Below are positions 1,136 to 14,232 of a stretch of DNA of 39,003 nt, piece after piece. Under the pieces are notes generated by a model. It had not been told where the DNA came from and searched no databases. It worked only from the letters and a program-made list of their open reading frames with translations. The position numbers and the translations under genes were made by a program. Within the stretch, counting starts at the first letter, position 1. Each line of letters starts with the position of its first letter. Source of the stretch: a virus (Duplodnaviria > Heunggongvirae > Uroviricota > Caudoviricetes); the IMG/VR virus record IMGVR_UViG_2563366825_000018, one strand, 5' to 3'.

Positions 1136-2812
1136 CTAAGCAACATGTAGTTCATCGTTGGCGGAAGTGGCTGCTTTGCGCTCCTGCTCAATAGCTAGAG
1201 ACTCTCTATATTCTTTCGCCTCTGCAAACATTGTCCAGTGGGCGTTGATGTTCATGTCTTCAATAACTGATTTGATTTCTTTTAAATTTACGTTAAAAAA
1301 CTCTTTTCGTGAGCTAATTTTATTGACCTGCTTTTCGTTGAAAACTTTATGCAGATGGTTTTCTAATGATGGTGCATCATCACTATAAATCATCGCATGA
1401 ACATCGAACGAAAAAGGAACACTAGCATCTCCGAGTTCACGAACACGATCAAGTGGTTCAAGGCGGCGTGTCATTCCAATTTTATATACATCTTCGCCAA
1501 ATGAACCAATATTACTAATGATATAGACGTGGCCTGATCTGGTTTGTTGAGCCATAGAAATAGCTCGTTGATTTTTAGCTTCAGCTTCTTCATATTTTAA
1601 CTGTAGTTCAGCTATTTTTTGCTCTAAAGCTAAGCGTTGTTCTTCATTTGCAAGCATAAGTTCTTTCGTTGCTTTATTTATAGCTTGCTGAATAGCTTTT
1701 TCTTCTTTTTCAGCTTCTTTTATCGCTTTTTCATATTCTCTACGAGCTCTTTCCTCTTCACGAAGCTGTTCTTTAATCCTTCTTTGCTCTTCTTTTTCTT
1801 CGAGCATAATTTCATTAACTGCTACACCCCATTTTAGCTCGTTGAGTCTTGCCTGAAGATAGATGTCACTTATTTTTGCGGACCTAAAGGCAGAGCCATT
1901 GTAATTTACTAGTTGAAATGCATCTTTTATTTCTTGGGAAAGTTTTCCAAAATTGTTGTGTTTGACTTTTGATAAAATACTGTCAACTCTTCCATTGAAG
2001 GCATCCAAAACAAAGTTTATGGCAGTATTACGCCTGTTTTGCTCAACATAATCACACGAAGCAGCTTTATTAGTTTTTATTAATGATTTGGTTAACTCTC
2101 TGGCTTTTTGTAATTCCTTGCCTGCATCTGTAAATTCATAATTTTCTGCCAGTTCATCAAGTACACTACGGTTAGGGATGATCCATTCATCACCATAACC
2201 TTCAATTTTATTTTTCATTGATTTTGCAACTGCTTCATATTTTTCTGCAAACTCTTTAGCTTCATATGCTGAACCAGCAATCTCCTTTGCTCTTTCTTCT
2301 GCATCAGAAATAATTTTTACTGCATTGTCATTAGCATTTGAGATTAGCTCATTTGCTTTATTATTAGCATTATCAAGACGTTCTTTGGCTTTCAGGCGTG
2401 CATCGCGAGCGTCTTTGGTGATTGCTATAGCTTCGCTATTAGCGTTGCTTATTGTCATCTGAGCTTGATAATTTGCTTCGTTTACTGTTTTAGCCGCCTT
2501 AATTTGGGCTTCATCTATTTTTTGCTTGGCTATTGAGTCCGCATTTTTTATCTTATTCTCTGCATCCATTACTGCGCTGTGCAATTCTTCGTATTGCCAC
2601 AATGGTGCTGCTCGCCCTTCAAGCTCTGATAATTCTCGTACGGTCTGTGCTAGTTTTTCTTGATTTTCAATCAGTTGGTTAGAAAGGGCTATGTTGTTAG
2701 CTGTCAGGTTATCTATAGCCGCTTTGTGTTTTTTACTTTGTTTAAATAATATTACAGCTAGAACAGGGGCGAGAAATGCTAATAAGAGTATAACGATGGC
2801 AAATGAATTCAT
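1136..2812 (-). CDS. membrane-anchored coiled-coil protein with DUF4041-like region and C-terminal T5orf172 (GIY-YIG-like) domain; accessory gene
   Basis: 558 aa; N-terminal TM helix, about 150 aa of Ala/Lys/Glu-rich coiled coil, C-terminal GHVYIISNIGSFGEDVYKIGMTRRLEPLDRVRELG motif; AGGA-type RBS 7 nt before the ATG; sits 20 nt downstream of cI on the same strand; AT-rich. Confidence 0.75.
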   Translation of the reverse strand: MNSFAIVILLLAFLAPVLAVILFKQSKKHKAAIDNLTANNIALSNQLIENQEKLAQTVRELSELEGRAAPLWQYEELHSAVMDAENKIKNADSIAKQKIDEAQIKAAKTVNEANYQAQMTISNANSEAIAITKDARDARLKAKERLDNANNKANELISNANDNAVKIISDAEERAKEIAGSAYEAKEFAEKYEAVAKSMKNKIEGYGDEWIIPNRSVLDELAENYEFTDAGKELQKARELTKSLIKTNKAASCDYVEQNRRNTAINFVLDAFNGRVDSILSKVKHNNFGKLSQEIKDAFQLVNYNGSAFRSAKISDIYLQARLNELKWGVAVNEIMLEEKEEQRRIKEQLREEERARREYEKAIKEAEKEEKAIQQAINKATKELMLANEEQRLALEQKIAELQLKYEEAEAKNQRAISMAQQTRSGHVYIISNIGSFGEDVYKIGMTRRLEPLDRVRELGDASVPFSFDVHAMIYSDDAPSLENHLHKVFNEKQVNKISSRKEFFNVNLKEIKSVIEDMNINAHWTMFAEAKEYRESLAIEQERKAATSANDELHVA

Positions 2813-2832: not shown

Positions 2833-3429
2833 TTAATTCGAGACTATTGTACTTCTTATACAAGCAACCACTTCAATATCAGAAAATGCACATTCAAAGC
2901 TATTCTCTGCTGTTGTAATTTTAATCATTCCTTTAGGAAGCCTTGTGATTTTTCGAATGGAATAGGTTCCGTCGATATTGATTAACCAGTTTCCATCAAG
3001 TACTTCAGAAAATTTTTGATCACAAATGTATGTGACGAGTCCATCCTGAACAACAATTGGTGATGAAAGGTTTGCAGGAAGAAATGATGAATCGAAGACA
3101 TATGAACCGTCTTCAATCATTTTGCCTGCGGCAAGGCGAAACTTAACAAGCTCTTCTGTAGCTGCTGTCAGCGAGCTTTGCTTAAGGCCTTGTCCGGTAG
3201 TTAACCATTTGAGGGAGGTTCCTGTTTCAAGAGCACATTGGATTATCCAGTCAGCAGGAAATGTATCCCGCAAATACCTGTTCGCTAGTGTGCTTTTTGA
3301 TACTTCCAAGTGATCAGCTAAAGCCTGTCGTGTCGTAAAGCCATAGGCTTCGACTAATCGCTCAATCGCAGCCTTACCACCTTTATTGGGATTTATTTTG
3401 ATCTCACTTGGGTACTTTGATGTTGACAT
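2833..3429 (-). CDS. cI: immunity repressor CI, phage 186 type
   Basis: 198 aa; ERLVEAYGFTTRQALADHLEVSKSTLANRYLRD...CALETGTSLKWLTTGQG matches my recollection of 186 CI (HTH N-domain plus C-domain). Confidence 0.88.
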   Translation of the reverse strand: MSTSKYPSEIKINPNKGGKAAIERLVEAYGFTTRQALADHLEVSKSTLANRYLRDTFPADWIIQCALETGTSLKWLTTGQGLKQSSLTAATEELVKFRLAAGKMIEDGSYVFDSSFLPANLSSPIVVQDGLVTYICDQKFSEVLDGNWLINIDGTYSIRKITRLPKGMIKITTAENSFECAFSDIEVVACIRSTIVSN

Positions 3430-5579: not shown

Positions 5580-6433
5580 GCACTATCCTGAAATGGGCGG
5601 GAAATAAAACCGCCATTATGCCAGAACTGAAAAAATACCTTCCTGCTGGCCCGCGACTGGTTGAACCTTTCGCGGGTTCCTGTGCTGTGATGATGGAAAC
5701 GGATTATCCCAGCTATCTGGTTGCGGATATTAATCCTGATTTAATCAACCTCTATAAAAAGGTTGCCGCTGATTGTGAATCGTTTATATCTCGCGCCAGA
5801 GTTTTATTTGAGATCGCAAACAGGGAGGTGGCTTATTACAACATAAGGCAGGAGTTTAACTGCTCAACTGAAATTACTGATTTCATGAAAGCGGTATATT
5901 TCCTGTATCTCAATCGTCACGGTTACCGTGGTTTATGTCGCTATAACAAGAGCGGGCATTTCAACATTCCCTACGGTAATTATAAAAATCCGTATTTCCC
6001 TGAAAAAGAACTTCGCACATTTGCAGAAAAAGCCCAGCGAGCAACGTTTATCTGCGCCAGCTTTGATGAAACGCTGGCGATGTTGAAGGCGGGAGATGTG
6101 GTGTATTGCGATCCGCCATATGACGGTACGTTTTCCGGCTATCACACTGATGGTTTCACTGAAGATGACCAGTATCATCTGGCATCCGTTCTTGAACATC
6201 GGTCATCAGAAGGACATCCGGTCATTGTTTCTAACAGTGACACATCCCTGATCCGTTCGCTGTATCGCAATTTTACTCACCACTATATCAAGGTAAAACG
6301 CAGCATCGGTGTGGCAGCTGGCGAGGGTAAATCAGCAACAGAAATCATTGCTGTTTCCGGGCCGCGCTGCTGGATGGGATTTGATTATTCGCGTGGCGTG
6401 GATAGTTCTGCCGTGTACGGAGTACGTGCATGA
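5576..6433 (+). CDS. dam: DNA adenine methyltransferase (Dam-like)
   Basis: [11 protein letters not shown]..., EPFAGSCAV (AdoMet motif), DPPY motif, [15 protein letters not shown] all parallel E. coli Dam; RBS GGAGG; start is the internal ATG of track ORF 5516-6433. Confidence 0.9.
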
Positions 6434-8844
6434 GTCATGCCGATATGAACAACTGCTGCGGCTTTAACGAGGCTGCCGCAGCATTCTCATGGAACAGCCC
6501 GAAAAAGGCCATTAACCCTTATCTGGACCCGGCGGAAGTTGCGCCGGTTTCTACGCTTTCAAACCTGATCACTCTGTACGCTGCCGATAACGAGCAGGAA
6601 CAGTTGCGCCGCGAGGCACTGAGTGATCAGGTCTGGGAGCGTTATTTCTTTAATGAATCACGTGATCCTGTCCAGCGCGAAATGGAGCAGGATAAGCTCA
6701 TTAGCCGGGCAAAGCTGGCGCATGAGCAGCAGCGTTTTAATTCAGACATGGTCATTCTGGCGGACGTCAACGCCCAGCCTTCCCATATCAGCAAGCCGCT
6801 GATGCAACGTATTGAATACTTCAGCAGCCTGGGCAGGCCAAAGGCTTATTCCCGCTATTTACGTGAGACGATTAAGCCATGTCTGGAACGACTGGAGCAT
6901 GTACGCGACAGTCAGCTATCTGCATCTTTTCGCTTTATGGCAAGCCATGAAGGGCTGGACGGCCTGCTGATCCTGCCTGAAATGAGTCAGGATCAGGTGA
7001 AACGCCTGTCCACCCTGGTAGCTGCGCATATGAGTATGTGCCTTGATGCAGCTTGTGGTGATTTGTATGCCACCGATGACGTTAAGCCAGAAGAAATCCG
7101 CAAGACATGGGAAAAGGTGGCAGCGGAAACCCTGCGTCTGGATGTCATCCCACCTGCGTTTGAGCAACTCCGTCGGAAAAGAAACCGCCGTAAACCCGTG
7201 CCCTATGAACTCATTCCGGGTTCGCTGGCACGTATGTTGTGCGCCGACTGGTGGTATCGGAAATTATGGAAGATGCGTTGCGAATGGCGGGAAGAGCAGT
7301 TGCGCGCTGTTTGCCTGGTCAGCAAAAAAGCATCTCCTTATGTCAGCTATGAAGCCGTGATGCATAAACGTGAGCAGCGCCGTAAGTCGCTGGAGTTTTT
7401 CCGTTCTCATGAACTGGTGAACGAAGACGGCGACACGCTGGACATGGAGGATGTGGTAAACGCCAGCAGCAGCAACCCTGCGCATCGCCGCAATGAGATG
7501 ATGGCCTGTGTTAAAGGTCTGGAGCTTATCGCGGAAATGCGCGGTGACTGCGCCGTTTTCTACACTATCACCTGTCCGTCGCGTTTCCATTCCACGCTAA
7601 ATAACGGCAGACCAAACCCGACCTGGACAAACGCGACGGTAAGACAAAGCAGCGATTATCTGGTCGGCATGTTTGCTGCATTTCGTAAGGCGATGCACAA
7701 AGCCGGGTTGCGCTGGTATGGCGTGCGGGTGGCTGAGCCGCATCATGATGGCACAGTTCACTGGCACCTGTTGTGTTTCATGCGCAAAAAAGACCGCCGT
7801 GCCATCACTGCATTACTGCGTAAGTTTGCCATCCGTGAAGACCGCGAGGAGCTGGGCAATAACACTGGGCCGCGCTTTAAGTCTGAGTTGATTAACCCGC
7901 GCAAAGGAACGCCGACAAGCTACATCGCGAAATATATCAGTAAGAACATTGACGGTCGTGGTCTGGCTGGCGAGATCAGCAAGGAAACGGGTAAATCTCT
8001 GCGTGATAACGCTGAATACGTGAATGCCTGGGCGTCTCTGCATCGTGTTCAGCAATTCCGCTTCTTTGGTATTCCGGGGCGTCAGGCTTACCGTGAACTT
8101 CGCTTGCTGGCTGGTCAGGCGGCAAGGCAACAGGGTGACAAAAAAGCAGGTGCGCCGGTACTGGATAACCCGCGTCTTGATGCCATTCTGGCTGCTGCTG
8201 ATGCTGGTTGTTTTGCCACCTACATCATGAAGCAGGGCGGCGTACTGGTTCCCCGTAAATATCACCTCATCAGAACCGCTTATGAAATCAACGAAGAGCC
8301 GACCGCCTATGGCGATCACGGCATTCGTATTTATGGCATCTGGTCACCCATTGCAGAGGGCAAGATCTGCACTCATGCAGTGAAGTGGAAAATGGTTCGT
8401 AAAGCCGTTGACGTTCAGGAGGCGGCAGCCGACCAGGGCGCTTGCGCCCCTTGGACTCGTGGCAATAACTGTCCCCTTGCTGAAAATTTGTACCAACAAG
8501 GGAAAGACAAATCAGCTGATGGAGATACCAGAACGGATATCACCCGCATGGATGACAAGGAGTTGCACGATTACCTGCACAGTATGAGCAAAAAAGAGCG
8601 CCGGGAACTGGCAGCAAGGTTACGCCTGGTGAAACCGAAACGGCGTAAAGACTATAAACAGCGAATTACAGACCATCAGCGACTGCAGCTCGTGTATGAA
8701 CTGAAGTCCAGGGGATTTGATGGCAGCGAGAAAGAGGTCGATTTACTGCTTCGCGGCGGCAGTATTCCGTCAGGAGCAGGCCTGCGTATCTTCTATCGGA
8801 ACCAGCGTTTGCAGGAAGATGATAAGTGGCGAAACCTGTATTAA
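6430..8844 (+). CDS. A: replication initiation protein A (rolling-circle endonuclease, P2 gpA family)
   Basis: 804 aa; [10 protein letters not shown] (HuH metal motif) and YIAKYISKN tyrosine motif; start overlaps the dam stop. Confidence 0.93.
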
Positions 8845-8938
8845 TTACGCGGGTTAACAATTCGTGCTCTTAATAATACCAGGCATATCAGGCTGATGGG
8901 CGTAAAAAAACGTTTTACATCAGTAAGATTATTATATG

Positions 8939-8954
8939 CTGTAAATATAAACAG
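8939..8954. promoter_or_regulatory. LexA (SOS) box upstream of the tum/DinI-like module
   Basis: CTGTAAATATAAACAG matches CTGT-N8-ACAG; a half-site-like TGTATACAGT follows; about 45 nt upstream of the 8997 start. Confidence 0.7.
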
Positions 8955-8996
8955 TGGTTATGTATACAGTATTAATTTGGTGTCATAGGAGGAAAG

Positions 8997-9185
8997 ATGC
9001 AGGACTATTTTTTGGAGTCTTTGAAGCTCCAGCGCATTGATTTTTTTCTTAAGCTTGTAGCGGCTAGTGAGTGTAGTGATGAAGAGAAGGGGCTCGCCCT
9101 GCAGTGGGTTTCTGAACTGACAGATGAACTCATGGCAAAAATCAGAACCCACGAATACAACCGCTCAATGGATGTCATCAGCTGA
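8997..9185 (+). CDS. small protein, possible N-terminal antirepressor (Tum-like) part
   Basis: 62 aa; strong RBS AGGAGG 4 nt upstream; downstream of LexA box. Confidence 0.6.
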   Translation: MQDYFLESLKLQRIDFFLKLVAASECSDEEKGLALQWVSELTDELMAKIRTHEYNRSMDVIS

Positions 9186-9195
9186 GGTGACTTTT

Positions 9196-9429
9196 ATGCG
9201 CATTGAAATAATGATCGATAAAGAGCAGAAGATTAGCCAGTCTACCCTGGACGCCCTTGAATCCGAGCTTTACCGCAATCTGCGCCCCCTGTATCCCAAA
9301 ATGGTAATTCGTATCCGTAAAGGTAGCTCTAACGGTGTGGAACTAACCGGATTGCAACTGGACGAAGAAAGAAAACAAGTGATGAAAATTATGCAGAAGG
9401 TGTGGGAAGACGACAGCTGGCTGCATTAA
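9196..9429 (+). CDS. DinI-family protein (Tum C-terminal-domain-like)
   Basis: MRIEIMIDKEQKISQSTLDALESELYRNLRPLYP...VWEDDSWLH parallels E. coli DinI; RBS GAGGTG; start is the internal ATG of track ORF 9124-9429. Confidence 0.8.
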   Translation: MRIEIMIDKEQKISQSTLDALESELYRNLRPLYPKMVIRIRKGSSNGVELTGLQLDEERKQVMKIMQKVWEDDSWLH

Positions 9430-9610
9430 GAAACGTTGCCCCCAGGAGGATTCATTCTTATGGGGCTTGTTTGGGCAATGAGTGAAATAAGGCGTAAGGG
9501 GGCGGGCACTTTGATAAGTGATCTTCCGCTTTGTGCTGCGAGTACAACCGATGGACGCAACTTTCTCTTTGCTACTGCCAAATGTTTTTGGATTTAACCA
9601 TCCTATAAAT

Positions 9611-9634
9611 CAATCACCTCCTGCCTAGGAGGTG
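9611..9634. other. perfect 10-bp-stem hairpin (atcacctcct gcct aggaggtgat)
   Basis: Inverted repeat read directly from sequence; no clear T-tract. Confidence 0.5.
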
Positions 9635-9655
9635 ATTTAGGGATAACAATTAAAG

Positions 9656-9682
9656 ATAGCCACTTGGAGTGGCTATTTTCTT
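9656..9682. terminator. bidirectional rho-independent terminator between the tum/DinI operon and the convergent minus-strand operon
   Basis: atagccact tgg agtggctat followed by tttctt on plus strand; T-rich on minus strand as well. Confidence 0.6.
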
Positions 9683-9686
9683 AACG

Positions 9687-10346
9687 TTATGATTTCATTT
9701 TTTCGAATTTATTTTTTTGCAAAACAATATCTGTAGCTTCAATGGATTTTTTAAGTGAATCTAAAAGACGTTGACGTCTCTTAATTTTAGAGAAAGAAAC
9801 CCTCATAGCAGCCTCTTGTTTGGGCTTGATGTCCACCAGTACATAATATGGTTTTCTGGCTCCGCGCTTAATGTTGTTACGCTTAAAACCTTTTCCTCTA
9901 ATCGAAGCATTGGAATCAGCGATTTGTACAGGTAAAAACTCAAAACCACGTGTCGTCACTTTTGAACGAAATCTTTTAAATATTCTTGGTTCATGCTGTG
10001 CTCTCTTTGGTGTAGTCGAAAATAAAAAATGTTTCACGACAGTGGATTTTATCTCAGGATATTTTTCGAGATATTTTGAATTCAAGAGTGAGATGAATTT
10101 TTCAACTGGACTTATGTCAAGGTAAGAGCCGAACTTACTCTCAAAATACTTATCAAAGCTTTGGTTTTTATTATCATTAACAAACTTTGAAATATCAATT
10201 AGAAGTTCTTTCACGCCATTCTGACCAACTTCAGAAAGATATAAATCAATAATCTTTCCAAGATCATCTGAATCAAGTTCGCATGCGGTATCTTGATTGA
10301 AGTAGGACCGTATGAAATTATCTAGTTTAGTATATTCTTTTGACAT
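9687..10346 (-). CDS. hypothetical protein, acidic N-domain and very basic C-terminal half; second gene of two-gene cargo operon
   Basis: 219 aa; AT-rich; start 3 nt after upstream gene stop; C-terminal KRNNIKRGARKPYY, KIKRRQR stretches suggest nucleic acid binding. Confidence 0.7.
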   Translation of the reverse strand: MSKEYTKLDNFIRSYFNQDTACELDSDDLGKIIDLYLSEVGQNGVKELLIDISKFVNDNKNQSFDKYFESKFGSYLDISPVEKFISLLNSKYLEKYPEIKSTVVKHFLFSTTPKRAQHEPRIFKRFRSKVTTRGFEFLPVQIADSNASIRGKGFKRNNIKRGARKPYYVLVDIKPKQEAAMRVSFSKIKRRQRLLDSLKKSIEATDIVLQKNKFEKMKS

Positions 10347-10349
10347 ATA

Positions 10350-10814
10350 TCACCCCTTAACAGGATATGCAGTGAGGATGAAATGAGGCATTCCGTTAAA
10401 ATTTCCAACTTTCATAACTAAATTAATTCTTTTTGCAGTTAATATATTGTTTGGATCATCACGTTCAACGTAAGTGCCTACATCCTGTTCAATGTCTAAT
10501 TCCCTTGAAAATCTAACATCTGCGCGATTGGGATCTTTATACCACTCTGTAAATTCCATAAGAAATGAATTGAACCACTCGGTAGCTGATAGTTCTGCAA
10601 CTGATAAGTTTGTAAATGTTGAAGATACACGGAGTTTAGGAAATCGACCTATCAGGTAATTGGCATCCTTGCCAACATGTCTTCTAATTGTGTGTCCACC
10701 AGGTCCAGAATCCGAAGCTGCTTCATGAACTTTCAATTTGACGGGAGAGTATCCTGAGGAGTTTACTGTTGTCGATGTTGTAGCATGCTGTAGTTGTGAT
10801 GTAGAAGAAAACAT
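10350..10814 (-). CDS. hypothetical protein with GHTIRRHVGK motif; first gene of two-gene cargo operon
   Basis: Start ATG with GGAGGG RBS (internal to track ORF 10350-10865); 154 aa; no family confidently recognised. Confidence 0.65.
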   Translation of the reverse strand: MFSSTSQLQHATTSTTVNSSGYSPVKLKVHEAASDSGPGGHTIRRHVGKDANYLIGRFPKLRVSSTFTNLSVAELSATEWFNSFLMEFTEWYKDPNRADVRFSRELDIEQDVGTYVERDDPNNILTAKRINLVMKVGNFNGMPHFILTAYPVKG

Positions 10815-11073
10815 GTTCACCCTCCATGTTTTAGAATTGAGGTACAGTATATCGACGCTGCACATAACTTGTTTAAATATTTAGCCCTATGGTACACAAC
10901 CATATTGCTTTTTATGCTGTAACTTCTGCTCTTCGTCCACAGCGGATTTTTATCGTTGTAAACCAGTATGTTTCGTTTTTCAAGCAGTTATCCGATAGGG
11001 ATTTTCACTTCCCTTGGCAGCGCATGACTATGCTGCATGAATCCGCATGATCGTTTGAGGATCGTTTTTGCTG

Positions 11074-11097
11074 AGGCCCGCCAGAACTGGCGGGCTT
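11074..11097 (+). other. GC-rich hairpin with T-tail (gcccgcc agaact ggcgggc ttt)
   Basis: Inverted repeat seen in sequence just left of the cos-like motif. Confidence 0.4.
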
Positions 11098-11141
11098 TAG
11101 CTTATGTTATGCAGGTGCATGAAAATCACTCCATAAAGCGG

Positions 11142-11160
11142 GCAGGCGTGGCGGGGATAC
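11142..11160. other. candidate cos (cohesive end) site
   Basis: GGCGTGGCGGGGA matches the first 13 nt of the 186 cohesive end as I recall it; lies between the rightmost early cargo and the retron/Q end. Confidence 0.4.
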
Positions 11161-11215
11161 GAGCGCGCGCTATCACGTAAAATAGGCAAAATACTTCTGG
11201 AAAACAGAAAGTTGA

Positions 11216-13162
<1,947 letters not shown>

Positions 13163-13203
13163 TGAACAGCCCTAACGTTATGAACGCTAAGGCTGATTTT
13201 TCG

Positions 13204-14232
13204 TTAAAATTTATATGGTTTGAATTGTAATATATTATCTTCAAGCCATTTATTTAATTCCTGCATCCTTTTCTGTAAGGGTATTAATTCGTTCCTCACA
13301 AACACTAAACTCGCTTTTTCCACATCCCCAAACCCCCCGACATTATTTGGCATAATCCCCATCATTTGCGGTGGCACACGGTGCGCTGCCATCATGTCAT
13401 CGCGGCTGACATTTTTGATATTCAGAAACTCATCCTTCGCCGCCACTTCTGACAACGGGATAATCTGAAGCCCGTCCTTTTTACCGTTAGGCGAGTACAT
13501 AAACAGGTTACGGAAGTTACCAGGACCTTTGGCGCTTTTCATCGCATTGCGGAGGTTGTTCACATCCTCCTGGTTCTGCGCTGCATCGGTCATGTACATG
13601 ATGAAGCCTGCATGACTGCCGTTAATGTAATACTTGCGGCGGAACAGCGTGGCGGACTCGTTGAGCAGAGCTGACGGAATGGCAGAAAGATAACCGGGCA
13701 GGCCGTAGATCTCCTGGTTGATGTCCGGTTCCATCAGATGAAAAATGTTGCCTTTCGTGAACTGATACGGCTGCGTAGTCATGCCGTATTGCACAAACCA
13801 GTAGGTATTAAGGTCTAACCCGCGTCGGGTGTATTTTGCCAGTGCAGGCTCAAGGGCGATAACTTCACCGAAGCGGTTCGTGCGTTTCTCCAGGTAGGCG
13901 TTACCAAAAACCAGATAGTCCTGTACAAAACGCGAAAAAGCCTGCTGGCTGAGCAGCGGGTGAGGGATGTAGGTGCTGGTCAGAATGTTGCACTTCACTG
14001 CAATCGGTGAGCTGTGATGCACGGCGGCGCGGAAGGTTCGCGCCAGTCCGTCGAAACTCACAGGCGGCTCGTACCAACGATCCATCTGTACACATTCCAC
14101 ATAGTCCAGCAGTTCGCGGCGGTCCAGAACAGGAACGGGATCACCGAAGCTGAATGCTTCGGCTGAAGTCTGGCTTTTATGCTGGATCTGTTTCGTCGAC
14201 GCAGCGCGGTTCTTCTTACTCTTTCCCATCAA
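13204..14232 (-). CDS. Q: capsid portal protein (gpQ)
   Basis: 342 aa, P2 Q-like; leftward Q-P operon. Confidence 0.9.
   Translation of the reverse strand: MMGKSKKNRAASTKQIQHKSQTSAEAFSFGDPVPVLDRRELLDYVECVQMDRWYEPPVSFDGLARTFRAAVHHSSPIAVKCNILTSTYIPHPLLSQQAFSRFVQDYLVFGNAYLEKRTNRFGEVIALEPALAKYTRRGLDLNTYWFVQYGMTTQPYQFTKGNIFHLMEPDINQEIYGLPGYLSAIPSALLNESATLFRRKYYINGSHAGFIMYMTDAAQNQEDVNNLRNAMKSAKGPGNFRNLFMYSPNGKKDGLQIIPLSEVAAKDEFLNIKNVSRDDMMAAHRVPPQMMGIMPNNVGGFGDVEKASLVFVRNELIPLQKRMQELNKWLEDNILQFKPYKF

What the first reader, a model, noticed from the sequence alone, without database searches (positions are those of the whole stretch)
8939..9429. SOS-controlled tum-like module appears as two ORFs (62 aa plus DinI-like 77 aa)
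A good LexA box (CTGTAAATATAAACAG) precedes a small ORF and a DinI-family ORF separated by 10 nt and in different frames. In 186, as I recall, Tum is a single LexA-regulated antirepressor whose C-terminal half is DinI-like. Here the module is either naturally bipartite or split by a frameshift or stop, which would affect SOS inducibility of the prophage.
Basis: partly seen in the sequence, partly recalled or inferred. Interest (0 to 1): 0.4.

Follow-up and report, generated by a model that had tools for sequence, protein, structure and literature searches.

The report
Split tumA–tumB SOS induction module
This is the ordinary, already described two-gene version (62-aa antirepressor plus separate DinI-like protein, under LexA control) of the switch that lets Fels-2-type P2-like prophages wake up after DNA damage; it is intact and not a broken copy of the fused Tum gene of phage 186.

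Summary
A CTGT-N8-ACAG box sits at 8939-8954, followed by a 62-aa ORF (8997-9185), a 10-nt gap, and a 77-aa DinI-family ORF (9196-9429) in another frame. All of this lies just downstream of a P2 gpA-type replicase.

The frameshift or nonsense reading is refuted.
- The module is 97% identical to Fels-2 and occurs in 1125 of 5426 complete E. coli genomes, always as two genes.
- Diverged relatives keep both ORFs full length under strong purifying selection (dN/dS 0.02-0.12). Their junctions are 3, 10, 11, 12 or 13 nt, so all three relative frames occur.
- No fused form appears among relatives of the 62-aa protein.

ORF1 is a remote homologue of residues 5-43 of 186 Tum. ORF2 aligns with Tum residues 71-145, starting exactly at the internal GTG start of 186 Tum95.5.

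The split is published for PSP3 (tumA/tumB) and Fels-2. In E. coli HS prophage DuoHS, whose TumA is 61/62 identical, deleting only the 62-aa ORF abolishes mitomycin induction.

New details:
- The operator is a colicin-type pair of overlapping LexA boxes.
- This copy carries a minority A-to-G change in the putative -10.
- One identical TumA allele travels with at least 18 diverged CI repressor types.

Verdict: already known, low interest.

The parts
8914..8919 (+). -35 hexamer TTTACA of the SOS promoter (the counterpart of 186 p95)
   Evidence: Invariant in six phages whose flanking intergenic DNA has diverged. It lies 17 nt upstream of TGCTGT and 15 nt upstream of TATGCT. 186 p95 is annotated as TTCACA-18-TACTGT. 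The assignment rests on sequence and homology; there is no transcript mapping.
8935..8942 (+). -10 region. The hexamer is either TGCTGT (8937-8942, homologous to the 186 p95 -10 TACTGT) or TATGCT (8935-8940, 15-nt spacer). G8938 is a minority variant.
   Evidence: Five diverged relatives and E. coli HS have TATACTGT here. Among IMG/VR contigs, 116 have A and 4 have G.
8937..8956 (+). LexA box 1 (distal), TGCTGTAAATATAAACAGTG. It matches 16 of 20 positions of the consensus TACTGTATATATATACAGTA (consensus from established knowledge). Its core is 8939-8954.
   Evidence: CTGT and CAG invariant. It aligns with the distal SOS box of the colicin N and ColE1-type operators.
8952..8971 (+). LexA box 2 (proximal, degenerate), CAGTGGTTATGTATACAGTA. 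It matches 15 of 20 consensus positions. Its 16-nt core overlaps the core of box 1 by 1 nt.
   Evidence: GTGG...TACAGT is invariant in six diverged phages. It aligns base for base with the proximal box of colicin operators. Dual overlapping SOS boxes are characteristic of colicin genes (PMC2994835).
8997..9185 (+). tumA: 62-aa antirepressor, homologue of the N-terminal part of 186 Tum, predicted to be a two-helix hairpin
   Evidence: phrog_698 at 3.6e-38, and the 186 Tum N-half hits the same PHROG at 6.7e-6. hhalign gives 93.5% probability, E 2.3e-7, over residues 5-43. A bridging protein, P0162, links the two. dN/dS is 0.03-0.12. AlphaFold2 pLDDT is 87. It is 61/62 identical to the E. coli HS 'tum' whose deletion blocks induction.
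9184..9190 (+). Shine-Dalgarno sequence GAGGTGA of tumB, overlapping the tumA stop codon
   Evidence: Read directly from the sequence. Every relative has a purine-rich SD in a junction of different length.
9196..9429 (+). tumB: 77-aa DinI-family protein
   Evidence: PF06183 at 5.4e-23. It is 40% identical to 186 Tum residues 71-145, with M1 aligned to the GTG start of Tum95.5. It is 77% identical to PSP3 TumB. It matches E. coli DinI, PDB 1GHH, at E 4e-6. dN/dS is 0.02-0.10.
9653..9686 (.). Probable bidirectional intrinsic terminator (12-bp stem plus U tract) that ends the tumAB transcript and the convergent cargo operon
   Evidence: z = -6.4 for 9600-9690, which also holds a second strong hairpin at 9612-9637. 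The function is inferred.
2833..3429 (-). cI: 186-type immunity repressor, the presumed target of TumA
   Evidence: PF07022 plus PF16452. It is 32% identical to 186 CI and 55% to E. coli HS DuoHS CI. Its being the target is inferred.

Best explanation
8914-9429 is an intact bicistronic SOS operon of a Fels-2-type (186-like) P2-family prophage.

In the lysogen, LexA occupies two overlapping boxes that cover the -10 and start region of a TTTACA-type promoter, so the operon stays silent. After sustained DNA damage, RecA-stimulated LexA cleavage frees the promoter.

TumA (62 aa, helical hairpin) then binds the 186-type CI repressor (2833-3429) and stops it binding DNA. That opens the lytic promoter and induces the prophage.

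TumB is translated from its own ribosome-binding site. It is a DinI-like protein that modulates RecA filaments, tuning the SOS signal and the induction.

The two functions are fused in 186 Tum but are separate, independently conserved genes in this lineage.

Shown here: the anatomy, the homology of both ORFs, conservation and purifying selection of the two-cistron layout, and conservation of both boxes.
Shown in the literature for a near-identical module: the requirement for the 62-aa gene and for cleavable LexA.
Inferred: LexA binding to these exact boxes, TumA binding to this particular CI, and the role of TumB.
For: Anatomy.

Identity with known modules: the region is 97% identical to Fels-2 STM2728 plus STM2726.1, the latter annotated as similar to PSP3 TumB.

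Homology of ORF1 to the Tum N-half. Homology of ORF2 to the Tum C-half and to DinI.

186 itself also makes the DinI-like part separately, from an internal GTG that aligns with TumB M1.

Two-cistron layout:
- Junctions are 3, 10, 11, 12 or 13 nt, and relative frames 0, 1 and 2 all occur.
- dN/dS is 0.02-0.12 at dS 0.5-3.
- 105 of 113 IMG/VR contigs have the 62 aa + 10/11 nt + 77 aa layout, and none is fused.
- 1125 of 5426 E. coli genomes carry the module, annotated as two genes.

Operator: both boxes are invariant across diverged relatives and colinear with the colicin dual SOS boxes (PMC2994835).

Target: a 186-type CI is present.

Literature:
- PMC3121763 states that Fels-2 and PSP3 have tum split by a stop codon, with the upstream gene encoding the antirepressor.
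- PMC12055606 shows that delta-tum and lexA(Ind-) block mitomycin C induction of E. coli HS DuoHS.
- Its primers show that only the 62-aa ORF was deleted, and they match window 8977-8999 and 9183-9205.
- DuoHS TumA is 61/62 identical to the window's.
Against: Nothing has been measured for this copy.
- The window has G instead of A at 8938. That is position 2 of the hexamer homologous to the 186 p95 -10, which could weaken the promoter. Only 4 of 120 IMG/VR copies share it.
- The window's CI is only 55% identical to the CI on which the near-identical DuoHS TumA is known to act, and 41.5% identical to Fels-2 CI. Action on this CI is therefore an extrapolation.
- BLASTP of ORF1 against 186 Tum finds nothing. 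The homology needs profiles or an intermediate sequence.
- The generic promoter scan found no sigma-70 site here.
- The role of TumB is untested. Non-polar dinI deletions in Gifsy prophages had no measurable effect (PMC3121763).
Confidence: 0.85

Rival explanations
1. The two ORFs are the debris of a recently frameshifted or nonsense-split single tum gene, so the prophage has lost or weakened its SOS inducibility.
For: 186 has a single 146-aa Tum that covers both parts. The two ORFs here are adjacent and in different frames.
Against: - The same split occurs in Fels-2, PSP3, SopEPhi, Klebsiella and Yersinia phages with junctions of different length and frame. Each has its own stop codon and SD.
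- Both ORFs are under strong purifying selection.
- No fused relative of this TumA turned up among 181 stored homologues or among 66 representatives drawn from 1.84 billion proteins.
- ESSI2_ev015 carries a TumA-like gene with no DinI gene at all.
- The bipartite DuoHS prophage is mitomycin-inducible through its 62-aa gene.
Confidence: 0.02
2. The module is structurally intact but functionally attenuated or mismatched in this particular prophage. Either the A-to-G change at 8938 cripples the promoter's -10, or this TumA allele does not act on this CI type because mosaic recombination uncoupled them.
For: - G8938 replaces an A that is invariant in five diverged relatives and in E. coli HS. It falls on position 2 of the hexamer homologous to the 186 p95 -10.
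- It is a 4-of-120 minority variant.
- TumA and CI are not co-inherited. Identical TumA occurs with CI proteins of 18 clusters that are 33-88% identical to each other.
Against: - An alternative -10 (TATGCT, A at position 2, T at position 6) survives the change.
- Both ORFs remain intact in almost all 113 complete IMG/VR copies, which include the G-variant contigs (not broken down by variant).
- G-variant contig L093 carries a CI of a different cluster, so the variant is not confined to one decaying lineage.
- One TumA allele paired with so many CI types argues for broad specificity rather than frequent mismatch. The positions conserved across those CI types lie in the N-terminal DNA-binding domain.
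Confidence: 0.12
3. ORF1 is only a leader or upstream ORF that controls translation of the DinI-like gene, and the DinI-like protein is the real effector.
For: ORF1 is small and has no Pfam family. A weak hairpin spans its stop codon and the tumB SD.
Against: - The amino-acid sequence of ORF1 is conserved under dN/dS 0.03-0.12.
- It is homologous to the antirepressor half of 186 Tum.
- The hairpin is no better than shuffled sequence (z = -0.75) and is absent from relatives.
- Deleting ORF1 alone, with the DinI-like gene and its SD retained, abolishes induction in DuoHS.
Confidence: 0.01

Closest known systems
Fels-2 STM2728 plus STM2726.1, and the 'tum' gene plus adjacent DinI-like gene of E. 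coli HS prophage DuoHS
   Same: Same genes, order, 10-nt junction, dual LexA operator and position after gpA. The DNA is 97% identical to Fels-2. TumA is 61/62 identical to both Fels-2 and DuoHS. DuoHS tum (the 62-aa ORF) and cleavable LexA are required for mitomycin induction.
   Different: - The window has G rather than A at 8938.
- Its CI is a different type, 41.5% identical to Fels-2 CI and 55% to DuoHS CI.
- The orf97-like gene that follows tumB in Fels-2 and 186 is replaced by a low-GC cargo island on the other strand.
PSP3 tumA / tumB
   Same: Two-gene layout, with a roughly 60-aa antirepressor followed by a 77-aa DinI homologue. TumB is 77% identical. PMC3121763 reports that the upstream gene carries the antirepressor activity.
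   Different: PSP3 TumA belongs to another subfamily, phrog_1993. The window's ORF1 hits that family only at E 0.0022, and hhalign is not significant. The PSP3 junction is 3 nt and in frame, a plain stop codon between the halves.
Coliphage 186 Tum (146 aa, promoter p95)
   Same: LexA-repressed promoter with the box over the -10, located after gene A. The N-terminal part is homologous to TumA and the C-terminal part to TumB. The DinI-like part is also made separately, as Tum95.5, from an internal start that aligns with TumB M1.
   Different: 186 has one fused ORF with a roughly 25-aa linker and a single LexA box. It is followed by terminator t95a and orf97. Sequence identity is low: about 21% for TumA in the hhalign alignment and 40% for TumB.
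Colicin operators (ColE1-type and colicin N): two overlapping SOS boxes
   Same: 47-48 nt of the window (about 8931-8978) are 83-87% identical to the sequence directly upstream of cna and to a ColE1-like plasmid, with both boxes in register. In colicin operons this arrangement binds two LexA dimers and keeps a lethal gene tightly off (PMC2994835).
   Different: Different -35 and -10 placement: in the colicin plasmids TTGACA and the -10 lie upstream of the boxes. The downstream genes are different. Whether the resemblance reflects common descent or convergence on LexA's preferences is not resolved.
Gifsy-1/2/3 dinI-gfoA/gftA SOS operons
   Same: A LexA-controlled operon that pairs a small antirepressor with a DinI homologue. 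The antirepressor acts on a non-cleavable repressor and can act on several repressors (PMC3121763).
   Different: Gene order is reversed (dinI first). The antirepressors and repressors belong to unrelated families, and the phages are lambdoid.

Membership tests
Tum/TumA antirepressors of 186-like P2-family phages | Sequence homology to the N-terminal (non-DinI) part of 186 Tum | tested here: met
   The 186 Tum N-half hits phrog_698, the window ORF1 family, at E 6.7e-6. hhalign of 15 ORF1 relatives against 186 Tum gives 93.5% probability, E 2.3e-7, over residues 5-43. Family member P0162 is 50% identical to Tum residues 7-42, E 4e-11. Direct BLASTP is negative.
Tum/TumA antirepressors of 186-like P2-family phages | LexA operator overlapping the promoter directly upstream | tested here: met
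   Tested at sequence level only. Box 1 is 8937-8956 and box 2 is 8952-8971, both conserved in diverged relatives. The architecture parallels 186 p95. LexA binding itself cannot be tested with these tools.
Tum/TumA antirepressors of 186-like P2-family phages | Genomic context: downstream of replicase gene A in a phage with a 186-type CI / Apl / CII switch | tested here: met
   gpA (PF05840, 1e-127) lies at 6430-8844. CI has PF07022 plus PF16452 at 2833-3429. By eye, Apl- and CII-like ORFs follow it; they were not scanned against any library.
Tum/TumA antirepressors of 186-like P2-family phages | Binds CI, blocks its DNA binding, and is required for SOS induction | not testable with these tools
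   Shown genetically for the 61/62-identical gene of E. coli HS DuoHS (PMC12055606). Reported biochemically for 186 Tum (Shearwin 1998, as cited in PMC3121763). Not shown for this copy or this CI type.
DinI family (PF06183) | Full-length match to the DinI domain above the curated cut-off | tested here: met
   81.5 bits against a cut-off of 24.2, residues 14-76, profile positions 1-63 of 63. E. coli DinI 1GHH matches at E 4.3e-6 over residues 1-75, including the C-terminal W-E-acidic-W motif.
DinI family (PF06183) | Binds RecA filaments and modulates the SOS response | not testable with these tools
   Inferred from family membership and from the 186 record note that Tum95.5 'modulates SOS induction'.
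Fused single-polypeptide Tum (186 type) | Antirepressor and DinI-like parts in one open reading frame | tested here: not met
   A stop codon lies at 9183-9185, followed by a 10-nt gap and a +1 frame offset. The same holds in 105 of 113 IMG/VR relatives. Fused genes were found only at 92% identity or more to 186 Tum.
Colicin-type dual overlapping SOS boxes | Two LexA 16-mer cores that overlap by about one base, with the proximal one degenerate | tested here: met
   The cores are 8939-8954 and 8954-8969. They are colinear with the operator upstream of cna and with a ColE1-like plasmid.
Colicin-type dual overlapping SOS boxes | Cooperative occupation by two LexA dimers | not testable with these tools
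   Known for colicin operons (Lu and Chak 1996, as cited in PMC2994835). Not tested for any Fels-2-type phage in the papers I could read.

The most novel reading that the evidence does not exclude
TumA of Fels-2-type phages may be a broad-specificity antirepressor. It would recognise the conserved N-terminal DNA-binding domain of 186-type CI repressors rather than one immunity type. A single allele, the window's, which is also the commonest, then serves at least 18 diverged CI types. One damaged cell could co-induce heteroimmune P2-family prophages, all gated by a colicin-style double LexA operator that delays firing until SOS is deep. A smaller variant of this reading is that the A-to-G change at 8938 makes this particular copy a low-inducibility allele.
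Probability: 0.4. Interest if true: 0.4.

Novelty: already known. Interest (0 to 1): 0.12.

Why it matters
It matters little as a discovery. The split tumA/tumB layout is published for PSP3 and Fels-2, and the 62-aa gene has been shown to be essential for induction of a near-identical E. coli prophage.

The practical value is for annotation. The 62-aa 'hypothetical protein' present in about a fifth of complete E. coli genomes should be labelled as the SOS antirepressor TumA. The neighbouring 'DinI-like' gene should not be taken as a truncated Tum.

Two side observations could be worth a small experiment. First, the operator is a colicin-type double LexA box. Second, one TumA allele is shared by many diverged CI repressors. 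Together they predict tight, late and possibly cross-prophage induction.

Tried and rejected
- **Translational coupling or attenuation by the hairpin at 9174-9191, over the tumA stop and tumB SD.** The fold is no better than shuffles (z = -0.75) and the hairpin is absent from relatives with other junctions. Dropped.
- **Direct BLASTP of ORF1 against 186 Tum.** No hit. Profiles and a bridging sequence were needed.
- **hhalign of the ORF1 family against PSP3 TumA.** Not significant. The link to PSP3 TumA runs only through 186 Tum and phrog_1993.
- **Generic sigma-70 scan.** It found no promoter in 8700-9800. The promoter assignment rests on conservation and on the 186 annotation.
- **Rfam scan of 8800-11400.** Nothing relevant.
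- **PDB sequence search with the TumA profile.** No hit.
- **Foldseek of the TumA model against BFVD.** No match at E 0.001 or better, as expected for a two-helix hairpin.
- **Bunny et al. 2002 (PMC151935), the primary source for the Fels-2 split.** Not held. I cite it only through PMC3121763.
- **Literature search for 'tumA/tumB'.** Only noise.
- **Heterology index for the two boxes.** Not computed, because the published frequency table was not to hand.

Full report
**Observation**

- CTGTAAATATAAACAG lies at 8939-8954 and is the only CTGT-N8-ACAG in the 39-kb window. About 0.5 such sites are expected by chance, so position and conservation carry the weight, not the count.
- An ATG ORF of 62 aa runs 8997-9185, preceded by AGGAGG.
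- After a 10-nt gap, an ATG ORF of 77 aa runs 9196-9429 in a different frame, preceded by GAGGTGA.
- The second ORF is a full-length DinI-family protein (PF06183, 81.5 bits). The first has no Pfam family.
- Directly upstream is an 804-aa P2 gpA-type replicase.
- The window also holds an integrase and a 186-type CI repressor with PF07022 plus PF16452 at 2833-3429. By eye, Apl-like and CII-like ORFs follow it.

So this is a 186/Fels-2-type member of the P2 family.

**What the two ORFs are**

ORF2 aligns without gaps to residues 71-145 of 186 Tum at 40% identity. Its first residue falls on V71. The 186 GenBank record annotates V71 as the GTG start of 'Tum95.5', a separately translated DinI-like product that 'modulates SOS induction'. 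ORF2 is also 77% identical to PSP3 TumB and matches E. coli DinI, PDB 1GHH.

ORF1 gives no BLASTP hit to 186 Tum, but three results establish the homology.
- Its PHROG family (phrog_698, E 3.6e-38) is hit by the N-terminal 70 residues of 186 Tum at E 6.7e-6 over the same positions.
- A family member, P0162, is 50% identical to Tum residues 7-42 (E 4e-11).
- A 15-sequence profile of ORF1 relatives aligns to Tum residues 5-43 with 93.5% probability (E 2.3e-7).

The shared core is I/L-x-R-I/V-E/D-hydrophobic...C-x6-LA-I/L-x-W/L-I/V-S/A-E-L/I. AlphaFold2 predicts a two-helix hairpin with that Cys in the turn (pLDDT 87).

**Naturally bipartite, not broken**

The 8845-9430 stretch is 97% identical to Fels-2, where it is annotated as STM2728 (hypothetical, 62 aa) plus STM2726.1 (DinI family, 'similar to TumB of PsP3'). 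It matches 56 phage records and 1125 of 5426 complete E. coli genomes, which PGAP annotates as two genes.

In relatives whose DNA has diverged to saturation at synonymous sites (dS 0.5-3), both ORFs keep full length. dN/dS is 0.03-0.12 for tumA and 0.02-0.10 for tumB.

The junction differs between lineages. It is 10 nt in the window, Fels-2 and Kp4872-2; 11 nt in SopEPhi and phi4.1; 12 nt in MLG42; 13 nt in phi12.1; and 3 nt in PSP3. All three relative reading frames therefore occur, each with its own stop codon and SD. A recent frameshift in a fused gene would not produce that pattern.

Other checks agree.
- Of 113 complete IMG/VR contigs carrying the operator, 105 have 62 aa + 10/11 nt + 77 aa, and none is fused.
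- None of 181 stored TumA homologues contains a DinI domain. That set includes the 66 representatives found among 1.84 billion proteins.
- ESSI2_ev015 has a TumA-like gene and no DinI gene.
- The fused 146-aa gene was found only in phages at least 92% identical to 186 Tum.

**Literature**

PMC3121763 (Lemire et al. [quoted passage not shown] The PSP3 record names them tumA and tumB.

[quoted passage not shown] Its primer table shows that 'tum' is the 62-aa ORF only. The construct reads ...ATAGGAGGAAAG-ATG-TGA-GGTGACTTTT-ATGCGCATTG, which leaves the DinI-like gene and its SD in place. Those primers match window 8977-8999 with one mismatch and 9183-9205 exactly. DuoHS TumA is 61/62 identical to the window's. 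The function of this very gene in the bipartite layout is therefore established experimentally elsewhere.

**The operator has two boxes**

Aligning the intergenic region of six phages shows diverged flanks around invariant blocks. These blocks are TTTACA (8914-8919), TAT-A/G-CTGT, CAGTGG and TACAGT.

The second block set forms a degenerate LexA box (8952-8971, CAGTGGTTATGTATACAGTA). Its 16-nt core overlaps the core of the first box by one base. About 47 nt of this region are 83-87% identical to the sequence immediately upstream of the colicin N gene and to a ColE1-like plasmid, with both boxes in register.

[quoted passage not shown] The published heterology indices are about 7.5 for the distal box and 11-11.6 for the proximal box of colicins E1 and N (PMC2994835). 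By analogy, the phage keeps a lethal gene tightly off and fires late in SOS. That step is inference. 186 p95 has a single box.

**How it most likely works**

LexA holds the promoter shut. LexA cleavage then allows a tumA-tumB transcript, which probably ends at the strong hairpin plus U tract at 9653-9686.

TumA inactivates CI, and TumB modulates RecA. Confidence in this overall model is about 0.85. The least certain links are TumA acting on this particular CI, and what TumB contributes.

**How this copy differs from the reference modules**

- Position 8938 is G where five diverged relatives and E. coli HS have A. Only 4 of 120 IMG/VR copies share the G.
  - If the -10 is the hexamer homologous to 186 p95 (TACTGT, 17-nt spacer), this changes its second base and could weaken the promoter.
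  - If the -10 is TATACT/TATGCT (15-nt spacer, with its TA also invariant), the effect would be mild.
  - The ColE1-like plasmid's distal box also begins TGCTGT, so LexA binding should survive.
- Similarity to Fels-2 stops at the tumB stop codon. The orf97-like gene of Fels-2 and 186 is replaced by a low-GC island.
- The CI belongs to a different type.

**TumA and CI are not co-inherited**

Among IMG/VR contigs that hold both genes, 41 have a TumA identical to the window's at 62/62. Together with the window, their CI proteins fall into 18 clusters at 90% identity. The clusters are 33-88% identical to each other, and only 3 of the contigs have a CI at least 95% like the window's.

The 28 positions invariant across the 18 types lie mostly in the N-terminal helix-turn-helix domain, while the C-terminal domain is highly variable. 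The simplest reading is that TumA recognises the conserved N-terminal domain and is not immunity-specific. That fits 186 Tum blocking DNA binding by CI, and the cross-acting Gifsy antirepressors. It remains an inference, and a mismatch in some mosaics cannot be excluded.

**Comparison, novelty and score**

The module belongs to the Tum/TumA antirepressor family by homology, operator and context, and to the DinI family. It is not a fused 186-type Tum.

The finding as stated is already known and the copy is intact, so interest is low (0.12). The double colicin-like operator and the one-allele, many-repressors pattern are the only parts I could not find described in the papers available to me. 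Both are modest extensions of known biology.

Noticed in passing
window 9600-13200: A low-GC (30-39%) cargo island lies between the tumB stop and portal gene Q (13204-14232, minus strand). This is where Fels-2 and 186 carry orf97. Similarity to Fels-2 ends exactly at the tumB stop codon.
   Followed up: partly
window 10350-10865 (-) and 9687-10346 (-): A 171-aa protein with a CdiA-CT RNase A-like toxin domain (PF18431, 1.5e-16) is followed immediately by a 219-aa protein whose N-terminus is a CdiI_2 immunity domain (PF18593, 2.5e-9). This is a free-standing toxin-immunity pair inside the prophage. It has no PADLOC hit.
   Followed up: partly
window 11222-13162 (+): A 646-aa retron reverse transcriptase with a Toprim domain, type I-C (PADLOC PDLC02966, 6e-217). 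Annotations in related phages repeatedly mention 'retron Ec67', so this prophage looks like an Ec67-type retron phage. The expected msr/msd region around 10890-11220 gave no Rfam hit.
   Followed up: partly
window 1136-2812 (-): A 558-aa DUF4041 plus T5orf172 protein matching PD-Lambda-1 (PADLOC PDLC03976, 1.6e-118) is inserted between the integrase and cI. It is a second defence-type cargo gene.
   Followed up: no
window 8938: G replaces the A found in five diverged relatives and E. coli HS, within the putative -10 and at position 2 of LexA box 1. It is a 4-of-120 minority variant in IMG/VR and occurs with more than one CI type.
   Followed up: partly
window 8931-8978; L016 1501-1548; L015 901-947: The dual LexA operator is 83-87% identical over 47-48 nt to the operator upstream of the colicin N gene and to a ColE1-like plasmid. 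I could not decide between shared ancestry and convergence.
   Followed up: partly
IMG/VR loci L017-L136, with window 2833-3429: An identical 62-aa TumA allele is found with CI repressors of 18 clusters that are 33-88% identical to each other. Conservation is concentrated in the CI N-terminal helix-turn-helix domain.
   Followed up: yes
L006 2891-3754 (Klebsiella phage Kp4872-2) and IMG/VR loci such as L028, L093, L135: Some CI repressors in this group are about 300-318 aa long and carry a duplicated N-terminal Phage_CI_repr helix-turn-helix domain.
   Followed up: no
L011 3385-3597 (Escherichia phage ESSI2_ev015): A TumA-like gene (49% identity) follows gene A with no DinI-like gene after it. 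The antirepressor gene therefore also exists on its own.
   Followed up: no
window 9612-9637 and 9653-9686: Two strong adjacent hairpins (z = -6.4 for 9600-9690). The second has U tracts on both strands and probably terminates both the tumAB transcript and the convergent toxin-immunity operon.
   Followed up: partly
protein P0139 (52 aa, metagenomic): A fragment whose first 41 residues match TumA 1-40 and whose residues 36-51 match TumB 10-25. It may be a deletion chimera or an assembly artefact, and it is the only hint of any TumA-TumB junction variant.
   Followed up: no
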